A DNA stretch of 28,367 bases, from IMG/VR virus record IMGVR_UViG_651053023_000009, one strand, 5' to 3'. Below are positions 6,001 through 9,000 of this stretch, one piece after another; position 1 is the first letter of the stretch; each line of letters opens with the position of its first letter. Source of the stretch: a virus (Duplodnaviria; Heunggongvirae; Uroviricota; Caudoviricetes). Position numbers: made by a program.

Positions 6001-9000
6001 TTAGCCATGGCTAACATATTGGTCAAGTGATTTTGTATGTTATGGCTAACATAATTGATATAATAAAAGATAACTCATTGATGATGTTATCTTTTATTTG
6101 TCCGCTGACGGGCTTTTAGTAATTCTTCAAAGAGTTTATTGAAATTTTTTACTCGAGCTCGCATTTCGGCGAGCTGGGTATCCTGTTCTGATTCTGGCAG
6201 TGCATTAAACAGCTCAAGGAGCTCTAGTTCTTTGGGGGCTAAGGCAACCGGCTTCTCAACAGGTGGTGTTGGTTGCTTGTCTTCATCGCCAAATAGAATC
6301 CATGTTGGTGAGCATTGCAATACTTTGCTGAGGGCAAAAAGGTTCTTCCCTGTAGGTTCACTATCATCCCGTTCCCATTGTGATACAGACACATGGGAGA
6401 TTTTCAGGGCTTTAGCAAGAGACCTTTGGGTGTGTTTGAGGTTTTTCCGACGATACCTAATGCGTTCGCCGATGGTTAAATTTTTTGTATCCATAGTTAG
6501 CTAATGCTAAATCGTATTGACTATGTTTTTGTTAACATCTATTTTGTTAGCCATGGCTAACAGCTAAGGTGTTTTAAATGCTTAAAACTGACGCTCTTTT
6601 GTATTTCGGTTCAAAAACAAAACTTGCACAAGCAGCAGGTATTCGTTTGGCTTCGCTTTATAGCTGGAAAGGGGATTTAGTTCCCGAAGGTCGCGCGATG
6701 CGTCTACAGGAGGCATCTGGCGGGGAGCTTCAGTATGATCCCAAAGTTTATGACGAATATCGTAAGACGAAGCGGGCGGGGCGGTTGAACAATGAAAATC
6801 ACTCCTGAACAGGCTCGTGAGGCTCTGGATGCCTGGATATGTCGACCAGGAATGACACAGGAGCAGGCGACGATATTAATCACTGAAGCATTCTGGGCTT
6901 TGAAAGAGCGCCCGAACATCGATGTTCAGCGTGTCACATATGAAGGTGGCGCGGTTGATCAGCGAGCGCTTAGCGTTAATCGAGTGAAGATATTTGAACG
7001 CTGGAAGGCTATCGACACCAGGGATAAGCGTGAAAAGTTCACAGCGCTAGTGCCTGCAATTATGGAGGCTATCCGGATTAGTGATTTCAGGTTGTATCGT
7101 GAAATTAGTGACGGAAAGAGCATTACGTACATGATCGCTGGGTTAAATAAAGAATATGGCGATGTGGTGGAGTCCGGACTGCTTTTTGCAGATCCTGCCG
7201 TTGTAGATCGTGAAACTGACGAACTTATAGAAAAAGCAATTGCTTTCAAGCTTGCGTATCGACAGCAATACCAACAAAAAGCTGGATGGAATTATGAGCC
7301 TTCTTTTTGCTGAACGCCCACTGGTTATAAACACACAGCTTGCGATGAAGATTGGCTTAAACGAAGCCATTGTGTTGCAGCAACTGCATTACTGGTTGAG
7401 AGATACCAATTCCGGCATGGAATGTGATGGTGTTCGCTGGATTTACAACACAACGGAACAATGGCTGGCGCAGTTCCCGTTCTGGTCAGAGTCAACGTTA
7501 AAGCGCGCGTTTGCAAGTCTGAAAACGCTGGGGCTTTTGCGTTGCGAAAAGCTCAATAAATCAAAGCGCGACATGACCAATTTCTACACGATCAACTACG
7601 GGAGCGATCTTTTAGATGGTGGCAAATTGAGCGAATCCATCAGTTCAAAATGCGTCGCTCCATCAGGTCAAAATGACATGATGGAAGAGGTCAAAATGAA
7701 ACGCTCCATTGGTTCAAAACGACCCAATGTCATCGGGTCAAAATGGCCCGATGATCCTACAGAGAATACAACAGAGATTACTACAGAGAATAAAAACACT
7801 TTTCGTCCGGAAGCTTTGCAACCGGACCAGCAGACGGCTGAACAGGATTTTTTAATCCGGCACCCTGACGCAGTTGTGTTTAGTGCGAAAAAACGGCAGT
7901 GGGGTAGCCAGGAGGATTTGGCGTGTGCGCAGTGGATCTGGGGGCGGATCGTGGGTCTCTACGAACAGGCCGCCAGTGATGATGGCGAGATCATGCGACC
8001 AAAAGAGCCTAACTGGACTGCCTGGGCCAATGACGTGCGCACAATGCGGATGCTGGATGGCAGAAGCCACAGACAAATTTGCGAAATGTTTGGTCGGGTA
8101 CAGCGAGATCCATTCTGGGTCAAAAACATCATGAGTCCGTCAAAGCTTCGCGAAAAATGGGATGAGCTGGTTATTCGCCTGGGGCGTTCGCCAATAAAGC
8201 GTTGTGTGAATCATATTTCTGAACCGGATACCGAAATTCCGCCTGGTTTCAGGGGATAAGTGTTGATTTCAGGTCATGAGGTAATTTTAAGGGGGACTTG
8301 TGGCAAAAGTTTTTACACAAGAAGAGCGGGAAAAAATTAAAGGGCAGGTGGTGGAACTCGTGCGCCAGAGCGGTCGTGAGACGCTACGGCAACTGGAAGC
8401 TAAAACAGGTGCGACAAGATATCTGATGAGCATTCTTGCCAGAGAGCTGGTTGCCAGTGGTGATGTATATCACTCTGGCTATGGGTTGTTCCCGTCAGAA
8501 CAGGCTCGTAAGGACTGGCAAAACGCCCGCAAAAAACTCTCGAGGGCAAAGGTGAAGAAACCTGTTGTGGTTGATCCGGGCCTTATCTGGACATTACCCG
8601 ACGGAGAAATACGCCGCTACGACAGGCGTATGAACATAATCTGTCGCGAGTGCCGGAAGAGCGAAGTTATGCAGCGTGTATTGGCGTTCTATCAGGGATA
8701 TGCCTAGAATTGTCACAGGTAATGAAATTAAAGAGTATTGGTTCGGATATGAATTGACATTTTCGCGGCACAGAGCTAAAAATAGCCTACTTGTTGGTTT
8801 TGTGTGAAAAGCAGACATTTTGAGGCTCAGGATTTGTTATCAAATAAGACCAATACTTATCTATATTAATACACATTAAATACTGTGCAATACATTATTG
8901 CATTTTATTAGATAAGCGATATTTAGGGAAAAGAAAAGTCATAGAAAACAGGCCGCTATTTGTTGTTGGATTTTATAGGCTATATCTAGATTATCTTGCC

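What the first reader, a model, noticed from the sequence alone, without database searches (positions are those of the whole stretch)
7637..7806. Origin-like iteron array embedded in the replication initiator gene
Five copies of a 16-bp element (consensus about CCATCRGKTCAAAATG) occur at an exact 23-bp period inside the initiator ORF and are followed by an AT-rich stretch with ACAGAGA(A/T)TA repeats, the lambda ori-within-O arrangement. The encoded protein segment is a low-complexity linker. No separate helicase-loader gene follows.
Basis: partly seen in the sequence, partly recalled or inferred. Interest (0 to 1): 0.5.

Follow-up and report, generated by a model that had tools for sequence, protein, structure and literature searches.

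The report
Replication origin inside prophage initiator gene
A lambda-like prophage of E. coli carries its probable replication origin (five to six initiator-binding repeats plus an easily melted A-rich stretch) inside the linker-coding part of its own initiator gene, a textbook arrangement, here built on an unannotated DNA-binding domain that keeps the same repeats in phages of very distant bacteria.

Summary
GKTCAAAAYG occurs five times at 7643-7745, spaced 23, 23, 23 and 24 bp (6 in the window against 0.45 expected). A degenerate sixth copy lies upstream. Three 12-bp ACAGAGAWTAC repeats follow, in the least stable stretch of the gene (33% GC).

All of this lies in a 321-codon gene (7294-8259) that PHROGs calls "replication initiation O-like". 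It falls in the segment AlphaFold2 predicts as disordered (aa 109-174), between a winged-helix N-domain and a C-domain 39% identical to lambda O's C-domain.

- The 23-bp repeats fall in all three reading frames.
- This "linker" is the most conserved DNA of the gene in diverged relatives.
- Homologous N-domains in Klebsiella, Pantoea, Pseudomonas, Vibrio, Staphylococcus and Bacillus phages are followed by arrays with the same CAAAATG-type core.

The origin reading is therefore well supported, but not proven. The N-domain is not lambda O's family; the anatomy matches RepA_N plasmid origins as closely as ori-lambda. No loader gene follows, which is usual in this family, and the initiator ends in the last 20 residues of host DnaT. 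I rate it a new member of a known kind, of modest interest.

The parts
6517..6545 (+). pR-like sigma-70 promoter candidate ahead of the cro-like / YdaT-like / initiator operon. Transcription from it would run through the origin.
   Evidence: Consensus scan: TTGACT-17-TATTTT, 9 of 12 matches. The region holds no more such sites than its shuffles, so this is weak evidence and the role is inferred.
7294..8259 (+). Initiator gene (321 aa). The ORF opens at TTG 7240; the likely start is ATG 7294.
   Evidence: PHROG 391 'replication initiation O-like', E 1.1e-91. No Pfam family at E<=0.01. RefSeq places the CDS start at the equivalent of 7294 and names the product 'hypothetical protein'. 95% identical to the initiators of phages HannyBb, PhiR42_1 and mEp460_ev081.
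7294..7617 (+). Codes for the N-terminal winged-helix domain (aa 1-108), the presumed iteron-binding domain.
   Evidence: AlphaFold2 gives a helix / helix-strand-strand topology with pLDDT about 70-84. Foldseek hits are all winged-helix DNA binders; the top hit is the RepA_N initiator-DNA complex 5kbj, E 0.04. Conserved at 46-74% identity in phages of six genera.
7613..7635 (+). Degenerate iteron 0 (GGTGGCAAATTGAG).
   Evidence: In register with the array, 23 bp before copy 1 (family D2). The same position holds a good copy, GGTCAAAGTGA, in mEp460_4F5 and Kp4886-3.
7636..7658 (+). Iteron 1 (TCCATCAGTTCAAAATGCGTCGC): left arm plus core only.
7659..7685 (+). Iteron 2, a near-perfect palindrome: TCCATCAGGTCA-AAA-TGACATGATGGA.
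   Evidence: I2: 12-nt arms, 92% complementary, 3 nt between. Core match.
7682..7704 (+). Iteron 3 (TGGAAGAGGTCAAAATGAAACGC): left arm diverged. Its 19-nt ATGGAAGAGGTCAAAATGA is identical in a Staphylococcus phage origin.
7705..7729 (+). Iteron 4, palindromic: CATTGGTTCA-AAA-CGACCCAATG.
7730..7754 (+). Iteron 5, palindromic: TCATCGGGTCA-AAA-TGGCCCGATGA.
   Evidence: I4: 11-nt arms, 91% complementary. Part of the conservation peak at 7729-7788.
7755..7800 (+). A-rich, low-stability stretch with three 12-bp ACAGAGAWTAC repeats: the candidate DNA-unwinding element.
   Evidence: Three ACAGAGAWTA matches against 0.10 expected; TRF period 12, 2.8 copies. 33% GC, 50% A, least stable 40-mers of the gene. 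Nearly invariant in a four-sequence alignment that reaches a Klebsiella phage at 60% amino-acid identity. Similar 12-bp repeats occur in Pantoea, Pseudomonas and Bacillus relatives and single ACAGAGA/ATAGAGA motifs in the Staphylococcus one.
7805..7827 (.). Small inverted repeat, GTCCGG-N11-CCGGAC, to the right of the A-rich stretch. Its position recalls the palindrome that I recall (from memory) lying right of the lambda AT-rich region.
   Evidence: Mostly conserved in relatives, but it also codes for the conserved start of the C-domain, so a DNA-level role is not shown.
7831..8178 (+). Codes for the C-terminal helical domain (aa 180-295), homologous to the lambda O C-domain.
   Evidence: tblastn: 39.3% identity to lambda O, E 5e-18. 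Alignment. AlphaFold2 helices at 206-295.
8194..8256 (+). Codes for the C-terminal tail IKRCVNHISEPDTEIPPGFRG, a copy of the last 21 residues of the host primosomal protein DnaT.
   Evidence: PDB sequence search matches DnaT chains 2ru8 and 9zbt at residues 159-179. NCBIfam NF002770 matches positions 159-179. Nearly invariant in 22 homologues. Absent from lambda O.
8300..8707 (+). Next gene: DUF977 / YdaW-like, 'Ren-like'. It occupies the place where lambda has P and then ren, and it is not a loader.
   Evidence: Pfam PF06163, E 6e-29. PHROG 142. Its C-terminal 20 aa are 55% identical to lambda Ren.

Best explanation
This is the vegetative replication origin of a lambdoid, Stx2e-type E. coli prophage, embedded in the linker-coding part of its own initiator gene.

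Proposed mechanism:
1. The initiator's N-terminal winged-helix domain binds, probably as dimers, to the five or six semi-palindromic iterons. The core is GGTCAAAATG, each copy is centred on an A-tract, and the phasing is 23-24 bp.
2. The resulting nucleoprotein complex bends or strains the DNA and opens the adjoining 46-bp A-rich stretch with its three ACAGAGAWTAC 12-mers. Transcription from the pR-like promoter through the gene may help, as in lambda.
3. The lambda-O-like C-terminal domain, together with a C-terminal tail copied from host DnaT, then brings in the host helicase machinery (DnaB-DnaC, possibly through primosome proteins). The phage has no P-type loader of its own.

What is shown: the repeats, their position in the linker, the DNA-level constraint, their co-inheritance with the N-domain, the homology of the C-domain, and the absence of a loader gene.

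What is inferred: binding of the iterons by the N-domain, melting at the A-rich stretch, and the route of helicase recruitment.
For: (1) The repeats are real and non-random.

(2) They lie in the AlphaFold2-disordered linker (aa 109-174, nt 7618-7815), between a winged-helix N-domain and a helical C-domain.

(3) The C-domain is homologous to the lambda O segment that starts right after ori-lambda. Lambda's iterons share the TCAAAACG-type centre and are likewise followed by an A-rich stretch.

(4) The constraint is on DNA, not protein.
- Iteron cores fall in all three reading frames.
- Against mEp460_4F5 and Klebsiella Kp4886-3, the peak of nucleotide identity for the whole gene is at 7729-7788: 0.96 and 0.93, against about 0.7-0.8 and 0.3-0.8 elsewhere.
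- A four-sequence alignment shows the 12-mer region almost invariant, including third codon positions.

(5) Conservation with the cognate domain. Of 11 homologous initiator genes examined that were found through the gene or protein, 10 have an array immediately after the N-domain:
- GGTCAAAATG-type cores in HannyBb, E. coli 7_15_5C (L006), mEp460_4F5, Kp4886-3, and the Staphylococcus and Bacillus phages (L006 inspected in the alignment and the profile only);
- GGGCAAATTGC variants in Pantoea and, by eye only, Pseudomonas;
- GACAAAATG and GGACAAAATG in Vibrio TY21 and BMBtp14.
A relative whose N-terminal part differs (569R4) has different 15-bp iterons at the same place.

(6) The DNA-first test. 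Of 120 viral contigs holding two GTCAAAATG cores 22-24 bp apart, 81 encode the N-domain (33-99% identity) on the same strand, ending 1-140 bp upstream. Only 42 also have the lambda-O-like C-domain.

(7) The A-rich stretch is the thermodynamic minimum of the gene.

(8) Near-identical initiator genes (95%) with the same array occur in phage records deposited as isolated phages with a named host or source (HannyBb, PhiR42_1) and in mEp460_ev081.

(9) The anatomy equals that of experimentally proven origins:
- ori-lambda in O (annotated in the lambda record);
- pSK41 RepA_N, where the N-terminal domain binds Rep boxes centrally within rep, the linker encoded by the ori is dispensable, and the C-terminal domain is host-specific (PMC5703833);
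- RepA_N iterons described as semi-palindromic repeats converging on a poly-A tract (PMC7145576);
- SPP1 oriL embedded in gene 38 (PMC5499656).
Against: - There is no experimental evidence of binding, melting or autonomous replication for this family.
- I found no paper describing it. The 10-mer motif search returned only unrelated primers.
- The 'AT-rich' part is only moderately so (33% GC).
- Its 12-bp repeats are in frame (T-E-N/I-T), so part of their conservation could be at the protein level.
- Copies 1 and 3 are only half-palindromic.
- The AlphaFold2 model has low overall confidence (mean pLDDT 58, shallow alignment of 22 sequences at 70-96% identity).
- Loci found with the DNA pattern contain two cores by construction.
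- In the most distant homologue examined (Psychrobacter phage, 33% identity), no array was detected.
- The prophage in the window carries an IS481-family transposase and a SIR2 gene just downstream. It may not be inducible, so this particular copy could be silent.
Confidence: 0.8

Rival explanations
1. The repeats are initiator-binding sites used for something other than initiation. Examples would be autoregulation or a roadblock on the initiator's own transcript, copy or incompatibility control by titration or handcuffing, or a site that triggers the switch of replication mode. The true unwinding site would then lie elsewhere.
For: Iterons in plasmids serve in control as well as in initiation (general knowledge). 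The co-variation with the N-domain shows only that the domain and the repeats belong together, not what binding achieves. PMC5499656 cites a proposal that SPP1 G38P, bound at a second origin, stalls replication.
Against: The array is directly flanked by the least stable, strand-asymmetric A-rich stretch of the gene. This is the same order of parts as in ori-lambda and in pSK41 (PMC5703833), where origin function was shown. I examined only 7300-8100 for repeats, and the iteron core occurs just once elsewhere in the window (17133).
Confidence: 0.08
2. The conserved stretch is mainly a recombination joint, a 'linker' sequence between exchangeable modules. It would be kept because it lets phages swap N- and C-terminal halves of initiators. 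The 12-bp repeats would then be a by-product of coding a flexible T/E/N-rich peptide.
For: The mosaic break lies right after the A-rich stretch: similarity to Kp4886-3 collapses after about 7810. The same N-domain plus repeats are joined to at least three C-domain types: lambda-O-like, Phg_2220_C and DnaB_2/DnaD-like. The 12-bp repeats are in frame.
Against: - This does not explain the 23-bp out-of-frame iterons or their palindromic form.
- It does not explain why a Pseudomonas phage, in locally G+C-rich sequence, retains TACAGAGACTAC twice.
- In a Bacillus phage, CAGAGA occurs in two frames within a 21-nt unit (read by hand; one search counts).
- An origin at a domain joint and recombination at that joint are compatible, so this is more an addition than an alternative.
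Confidence: 0.07
3. It is an ancestral origin that is no longer used in this copy. The prophage would be a decaying remnant, replicated passively with the chromosome.
For: An IS481-family transposase, a SIR2 defence-like gene and hokD sit in the early-right region. The 99.8%-identical prophage in strain K_EC180 has lost late genes, with terminase pseudogenes.
Against: The initiator ORF is intact, and all parts of the array match those of phages deposited as isolates. The window's prophage holds about 6.9 kb that K_EC180 lacks, so it is less decayed. This rival concerns present activity, not identity.
Confidence: 0.05

Closest known systems
ori-lambda inside gene O of phage lambda (and, from memory, the origins of 434, phi80 and 82)
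   Same: - Four to six roughly 19-25-bp dyad-symmetric iterons spaced 20-24 bp, each centred on TCAAAAYG-like A-tracts.
- These are followed on the same side by an A-rich, strand-asymmetric stretch.
- All of it lies in the linker-coding middle of the initiator gene, within the rightward early operon after cro and a CII-like gene.
- The C-terminal domain is homologous (39% identity).
- A Ren-like gene lies downstream.
   Different: - The N-terminal DNA-binding domain is unrelated at sequence level: no PF04492 hit, hhalign probability 0.5%.
- The iteron arms differ (CATCRGG against ATCCCTC).
- There is no P gene; instead the protein ends in a DnaT-like tail that lambda O lacks.
RepA_N theta replicons of Firmicutes plasmids (pSK41, pTZ2162) and the Vibrio PLE RepA
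   Same: - A three-part initiator: N-terminal winged helix of about 110-120 aa, a dispensable linker encoded by the ori, and a host-specific C-terminal domain (PMC5703833).
- Iterons that are semi-palindromic direct repeats converging on a poly-A tract (PMC7145576).
- The same N-domain is joined to different C-domains in different hosts.
- The best Foldseek hit is the RepA_N-DNA complex 5kbj.
   Different: - Pfam RepA_N (PF06970) is not matched by any of seven N-domains, even at E<=5.
- A profile search of PDB sequences finds nothing.
- The structural match is weak (E 0.04, TM 0.45 on the target).
- This is a phage gene in a lambdoid early operon, not a plasmid rep with antisense control.
SPP1 gene 38 / oriL and staphylococcal phage 80-alpha ORF20 ('replisome organizer' with an embedded origin)
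   Same: The origin is embedded in the initiator gene (PMC5499656). Staphylococcus and Bacillus phages carry N-domains 38-46% identical to the one here in the protein search (46-47% over the N-domain alignment), with almost the same iterons.
   Different: Those phages pair the initiator with their own loader and, in SPP1 and fPfSau02, their own DnaB-type helicase. The C-domain there is DnaB_2/DnaD-like. I did not test whether G38P or ORF20 themselves belong to this N-domain family.
E. coli primosomal protein DnaT (C-terminal 21 residues only)
   Same: The tail KRCVNHISEPDTEIPPGFRG against DnaT [20 protein letters not shown] is identical at 16 of 20 aligned positions, and in both proteins it sits at the very C-terminus.
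   Different: There is no similarity outside the tail. DnaT is a restart adaptor with no sequence-specific DNA binding. The partner of this tail is not stated in the papers I could read (PMC13377028).

Membership tests
Lambdoid ori-within-O origins (ori-lambda type) | Array of at least four dyad-symmetric iterons inside the initiator gene | tested here: met
   Five good copies and one degenerate copy at 7613-7754. Three are clear palindromes.
Lambdoid ori-within-O origins (ori-lambda type) | A/T-rich, strand-asymmetric stretch directly beside the iterons | tested here: met
   7755-7800: 33% GC, 50% A, least stable 40-mers of the gene. Same order of parts as in lambda.
Lambdoid ori-within-O origins (ori-lambda type) | Origin lies in the linker between the DNA-binding N-domain and the C-domain | tested here: met
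   AlphaFold2 predicts aa 109-174 as disordered, equal to nt 7618-7815. The model has low overall confidence.
Lambdoid ori-within-O origins (ori-lambda type) | Initiator N-domain of the Phage_rep_O family (PF04492) | tested here: not met
   No Pfam hit, whereas lambda O hits PF04492 at 6e-36. hhalign probability 0.5%.
Lambdoid ori-within-O origins (ori-lambda type) | C-domain homologous to the lambda O C-domain | tested here: met
   39.3% identity over aa 183-294, E 5e-18. Alignment.
Lambdoid ori-within-O origins (ori-lambda type) | Partner P-type helicase loader encoded downstream | tested here: not met
   The next gene is DUF977/Ren-like. No lambda-P homologue follows in any of 31 related viral contigs with the lambda-O-like C-domain; 3 have a DnaC-like gene.
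Lambdoid ori-within-O origins (ori-lambda type) | Supports initiator-dependent autonomous replication | not testable with these tools
   Needs the cloning assay described under next steps.
RepA_N replicons | N-terminal domain matches Pfam RepA_N (PF06970) | tested here: not met
   No hit at E<=0.01 for the whole protein, nor at E<=5 for seven N-domains.
RepA_N replicons | N-domain has the RepA_N / DnaD-N winged-helix fold | tested here: inconclusive
   The Foldseek top hit is 5kbj; 4pql and 4pt7 also appear (E 0.04-0.3, TM on target about 0.45). Many other winged-helix proteins score alike, and the model is of modest quality.
RepA_N replicons | Origin iterons centrally within the rep gene, semi-palindromic, converging on a poly-A tract | tested here: met
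   compared with the descriptions in PMC5703833 and PMC7145576.
RepA_N replicons | Conserved N-domain joined to host-specific C-domains | tested here: met
   Lambda-O-like, Phg_2220_C, DnaB_2/DnaD-like and unassigned C-domains follow the same N-domain plus origin.
PHROG 391 'replication initiation O-like' | Full-length profile match | tested here: met
   E 1.1e-91, residues 35-339 of the 339-aa ORF against profile positions 11-298 of 298.
Phage replisome organizer (Phage_rep_org_N, SPP1 G38P type) | Pfam Phage_rep_org_N domain | tested here: not met
   No Pfam hit. Only weaker PHROG hits labelled 'replisome organizer' cover the C-domain.

The most novel reading that the evidence does not exclude
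The N-domain, its GGTCAAAATG iterons and the ACAGAGA 12-mers form one ancient, mobile 'origin cassette'. It is RepA_N-like in design but unrecognised by Pfam and NCBIfam, and it has moved between phages of Firmicutes and Proteobacteria with its DNA target almost unchanged. In each host it is plugged onto a host-specific recruiting domain.

In enterobacteria that recruiting end is the lambda-O C-domain plus a peptide copied from the host restart protein DnaT. The peptide lets the phage load DnaB through host DnaC or the primosome, with no loader of its own. If so, the tail would mark the still unknown interaction by which DnaT hands over to DnaB-DnaC (or docks on PriA), and would give a simple genetic handle on it.
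Probability: 0.3. Interest if true: 0.6.

Novelty: new member of a known kind. Interest (0 to 1): 0.3.

Why it matters
- Annotation. The initiator is present full-length in about a third of complete E. coli genomes (1779 of 5426), including Stx-phage backgrounds. RefSeq calls it 'hypothetical protein', and no Pfam or NCBIfam model covers it. Naming the gene and marking its internal origin would improve prophage annotation and help predict which prophages can still replicate.
- A small puzzle. The near-identity of the iteron core across phages of Staphylococcus, Bacillus, Vibrio and E. coli is unusual for an initiator-origin pair.
- Mechanism. The loader-less layout with a DnaT-derived tail suggests a testable route by which phages tap the host helicase-loading machinery.

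Tried and rejected
- Protein-level repeat as the cause of the 23-bp periodicity: rejected. The cores fall in frames 1, 0, 2, 1, 1, and in all frames across relatives.
- Homology of the N-domain to lambda O: none by hhalign.
- Pfam or NCBIfam assignment of the initiator: none beyond the DnaT tail.
- Sequence search of PDB with the protein, the N-domain profile and the C-domain profile: only the DnaT tail.
- DnaA boxes in or near the origin: none. The nearest is at 8311, and the count in the window is at chance level.
- Known RNA families at 6000-9000: none.
- TRF: finds only the 12-bp array, because the iteron units are too divergent outside the core.
- Literature search for the iteron and 12-mer sequences: only unrelated primers.
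- Search for 'initiator-solo' or for papers on loader-less lambdoid modules: nothing specific.
- The Weigel and Seitz review on phage replication modules is not held.
- The genome contigs pattern scan was mostly chance hits, as expected for 18 specified bases in 596 Gb. Only 8 of 120 loci had the N-domain.
- The search for related loci with the N-domain alignment returned only 95-100% relatives among its best 80, so it added no diversity.
- The role of the DnaT tail could not be settled from the preprimosome paper.
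Full report
**1. What is in the sequence**

Between 7613 and 7800 the + strand carries two kinds of repeat.

The first is an array with a period of 23-24 bp. The repeat finder lists five 23-nt copies starting at 7638, 7661, 7684, 7707 and 7731. Their 10-nt core GKTCAAAAYG occurs at 7643, 7666, 7689, 7712 and 7736. The only other match in the 28.4-kb window is at 17133, and shuffles give 0.45 matches on average, with none of 100 reaching 6.

- Copies 2, 4 and 5 are 25-27-bp near-palindromes whose arms converge on a central AAA (I2 and I4).
- Copies 1 and 3 keep only the left arm and the core.
- A degenerate sixth copy (7613-7635) lies one period upstream. It is a good copy in relatives.

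The second is three 12-bp repeats, ACAGAGAWTAC, at 7759, 7771 and 7783 (TRF). They lie in a 46-bp stretch that is 33% GC and 50% A on the + strand. This stretch holds the least stable 40-mers of the gene: -44.6 kcal/mol against a window mean of -55.0 (sd 4.4).

Small corrections are needed: the last spacing is 24, copy 3 deviates on its left side, and there is a sixth weak copy.

**2. The gene that holds it**

The repeats lie in an ORF that opens at 7240. Its likely start is ATG 7294, which RefSeq uses in a 100%-identical gene of E. coli K_EC180.

- The 321-aa product matches PHROG 391 'replication initiation O-like' at 1e-91.
- It matches no Pfam family, and in NCBIfam only 21 residues of DnaT.
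- RefSeq calls it 'hypothetical protein'.

The neighbourhood is a lambdoid immunity and replication region:

- a DicA/CI-like repressor (6087-6494, minus strand);
- a Cro/DicC-like gene (6578-6808);
- a YdaT/CII-like gene (6792-7313);
- the initiator;
- a DUF977 gene (8300-8707) whose C-terminus resembles lambda Ren.

The first 18.6 kb of the window are 99.8% identical to an Stx2e-carrying prophage next to ompW in K_EC180.

**3. Domain structure**

An AlphaFold2 model (mean pLDDT 58, shallow alignment of 22 sequences) shows four parts:

- a folded N-domain (aa 10-108, helix-turn-helix plus a beta wing);
- a disordered segment (aa 109-174, pLDDT about 27);
- a helical C-domain (aa 180-295);
- a disordered tail.

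The disordered segment corresponds to nt 7618-7815, which is exactly the iterons plus the A-rich stretch.

The C-domain is 39% identical to lambda O residues encoded at lambda 39196-39495, directly after ori-lambda, whose iterons lie at 39034-39118. Lambda's iterons (ATCCCTCAAAACGAGGGA and variants) and the A-rich stretch that follows them have the same layout and even a similar centre.

The N-domain is not the lambda O N-domain. It gives no PF04492 hit, whereas lambda O scores 6e-36, and hhalign gives 0.5% probability. Foldseek places it among winged-helix DNA binders. The RepA_N initiator-DNA complex 5kbj is the top hit, but at a weak E of 0.04.

**4. Is the constraint on the DNA?**

Three results say yes.

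- The 23-bp period is out of frame. The five cores lie in frames 1, 0, 2, 1, 1, and across relatives they occupy all three frames.
- In sliding windows against mEp460_4F5 (79% identical over the aligned 81% of the gene) and Klebsiella phage Kp4886-3 (60% amino-acid identity), the highest nucleotide identity of the whole gene is at 7729-7788 (0.96 and 0.93). That is iteron 5 plus the 12-mers, in what is the protein's linker.
- In a four-way alignment, the 12-mer region is nearly invariant, including third codon positions.

In Kp4886-3, similarity collapses after about 7810, where a different C-domain (Phg_2220_C) begins. The origin therefore travels with the N-domain.

**5.

I examined 11 homologous initiator genes found through nucleotide or protein similarity rather than through the repeat motif.

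- HannyBb, E. coli 7_15_5C (L006), mEp460_4F5 and Kp4886-3 keep the same 23-bp array and 12-mers. L006 was inspected only through the protein alignment and the identity profile; no repeat scan was run on it.
- Pantoea AH07 keeps the 23-bp period with a GGGCAAATTGC core, plus three TACAGAGAWTAC repeats.
- Pseudomonas USP_25 shows GGGCAATTTGC-like sites, seen by eye only, and two TACAGAGACTAC repeats.
- Staphylococcus phage fPfSau02 has three AGGTCAAAATG copies at 22-23 bp. It shares a 19-nt identical string, ATGGAAGAGGTCAAAATGA, with the window.
- Bacillus phage BMBtp2 has five GTGTCAAAATGA-type copies at 23 bp.
- At 33-36% identity, Vibrio TY21 (GACAAAATG, three copies) and Bacillus BMBtp14 (CATTAGGACAAAATGGGGTAATG, three copies) still show the core.
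- Only the Psychrobacter phage showed nothing.

A relative whose N-terminal part is different (569R4, HTH_36-like) has different 15-bp iterons, TCAAAATCTGACSCR, at the same place.

The converse, DNA-first test gave the same answer. Of 120 viral contigs with two GTCAAAATG cores 22-24 bp apart, 81 encode the N-domain on the same strand, ending 1-140 bp upstream. Only 42 of these also have the lambda-O-like C-domain. In these loci two cores are present by construction. The co-occurrence with the N-domain, the further copies at multiples of 23 bp, and the 12-mers are not.

A genome-wide scan was mostly chance hits. Its eight true loci include Staphylococcus caprae, Lysinibacillus, Serratia, Neptuniibacter and a Geobacteraceae MAG.

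**6. The missing loader**

In the window, the initiator is followed by the Ren-like DUF977 gene.

This is the rule in the family. Among 31 related viral contigs with enough downstream DNA:

| Gene(s) after the initiator | Contigs |
|---|---|
| DUF977 directly | 21 |
| YfdN-like gene | 5 |
| DnaC/IstB-like gene, then DUF977 | 3 |
| None of these | 2 |
| Lambda P | 0 |

E. coli 7_15_5C is an example of the DnaC-like case.

Phage records deposited with a named host or source (HannyBb, mEp460 derivatives, 569R4, Tritos, 640R1) show no loader or helicase gene in the 2.5-5 kb annotated on either side. The host's DnaB-DnaC must therefore presumably be used.

The initiator ends in IKRCVNHISEPDTEIPPGFRG, which matches the last 21 residues of E. 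coli DnaT.

- The tail is nearly invariant in homologues.
- It is kept as IPAGFRG in the mEp460_4F5 and 569R4 type.
- It is present on an unrelated initiator in phage Tritos, which has its own internal iterons (GTCACG pairs) followed by three ACAGATAAAGAT repeats.
- It is absent from lambda O, which has P.
- The C-domain itself shows no similarity to DnaT beyond the tail.

How DnaT recruits DnaB-DnaC is stated to be unknown (PMC13377028), and I could not find what the tail binds. Recruitment through the tail is therefore an inference.

**7. Mechanism proposed**

- Shown: anatomy, DNA-level constraint, co-inheritance with the N-domain, homology of the C-domain, and absence of a loader gene.
- Inferred by analogy with lambda O and ori-lambda (from memory), with pSK41 RepA_N (PMC5703833) and with SPP1 G38P (PMC5499656): dimers of the winged-helix domain occupy the phased, A-tract-centred iterons; the complex distorts the DNA and opens the adjoining A-rich 12-mer stretch; the C-domain and tail bring in the host helicase machinery.

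A pR-like promoter candidate at 6517-6545 could provide transcriptional activation as in lambda. There are no DnaA boxes.

**8. Rivals**

- A purely protein-level repeat is excluded for the iterons.
- Binding sites with a regulatory rather than an initiating role cannot be excluded without experiments. The flanking unwinding-prone stretch and the parallel with proven origins make it less likely.
- The conserved 12-mers at the module joint could also serve as a recombination linker. This is compatible with origin function.
- This particular prophage copy may be silent.

**9. Comparison and novelty**

The closest systems are ori-lambda in O and the RepA_N replicons.

- With ori-lambda it shares the layout, the operon context and the C-domain. 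It differs in the N-domain and in lacking P.
- With RepA_N it shares the tripartite initiator, the poly-A-centred semi-palindromic iterons inside the gene, and the swappable host-specific C-domain. Sequence membership is not met.

An origin inside a phage initiator gene is textbook, and PHROGs already labels the protein O-like, so this is a new member of a known kind. Three things go beyond the ordinary: the annotation gap for a gene present in about a third of complete E. coli genomes, the cross-phylum retention of the iteron core, and the DnaT-derived tail in loader-less modules.

**10. Verdict**

| Item | Rating |
|---|---|
| Observation | confirmed |
| Confidence that this is the phage's iteron origin | about 0.8 |
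| Interest | about 0.3 |

Noticed in passing
window 8194-8256 (aa 301-321 of the initiator); also L335:2500-2559, L004 and L005 initiator 3' ends: The initiator ends in a near-copy of the last 21 residues of host DnaT (…SEPDTEIPPGFRG). The same tail is found on at least three different initiator types, none followed by a lambda P gene and most by no loader gene at all. Lambda O lacks it. What the tail binds is unknown.
   Followed up: partly
L008:2814-2930, L011:2808-2965, L010:2824-2985, L009:2850-2995, L332:1828-1921, L334:1946-2069: Phages of Staphylococcus, Bacillus, Pantoea, Pseudomonas and Vibrio carry a homologous N-domain followed by iterons with the same CAAAATG-type core at about 23-bp phasing. 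Several also have ACAGAGA-type 12-mers. One 19-nt string is identical between the E. coli prophage and a Staphylococcus aureus phage.
   Followed up: yes
L006:4025-4765 (E. coli 7_15_5C) compared with window 8260-8300: An 87%-identical initiator in another E. coli prophage is followed by a DnaC/IstB-like AAA+ gene, inserted between the initiator and the downstream genes. The loader is therefore an optional accessory in this family (3 of 31 viral contigs).
   Followed up: partly
L335:1880-1962 (phage Tritos): An unrelated initiator has its own internal origin-like array: GTCACG-N4-GTCACG units, then three ACAGATAAAGAT repeats. Iterons followed by A-rich 12-mers in the linker thus recur across initiator families.
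   Followed up: no
L015:3170-3302: An IMG/VR contig has six 22-bp direct repeats (five perfect), ATAGGGTATAGTCAAAATGACC, followed by AT-rich DNA. The array is intergenic, about 520 bp upstream of a different winged-helix initiator-like gene. It has the same GTCAAAATGAC core without the N-domain family studied here.
   Followed up: partly
window 9076-10107 and 10436-11509: A SIR2-like gene (Pfam SIR2_2, possibly an anti-phage defence moron) and an IS481-family transposase (rve domains) are inserted in the early-right region, between the replication genes and hokD, RusA and Q.
   Followed up: no
window about 16537-18130: tRNA-Met(CAT) and tRNA-Arg(TCT) genes lie here (ARAGORN). By transfer of RefSeq annotation from the 99.8%-identical K_EC180 prophage, Shiga toxin Stx2e A and B genes lie just downstream. 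The window is therefore part of an Stx2e-converting prophage next to ompW.
   Followed up: partly
window 18594-20773 and 21533-26296: These segments are absent from the otherwise near-identical K_EC180 prophage, which has terminase pseudogenes at that point. The window's prophage is the less decayed version.
   Followed up: no
window 7294-8259: Annotation gap. No Pfam or NCBIfam model covers this initiator, and RefSeq names it 'hypothetical protein'. A full-length copy is nevertheless found in 1779 of 5426 complete E. coli genomes, and more than 4000 homologous clusters exist.
   Followed up: yes
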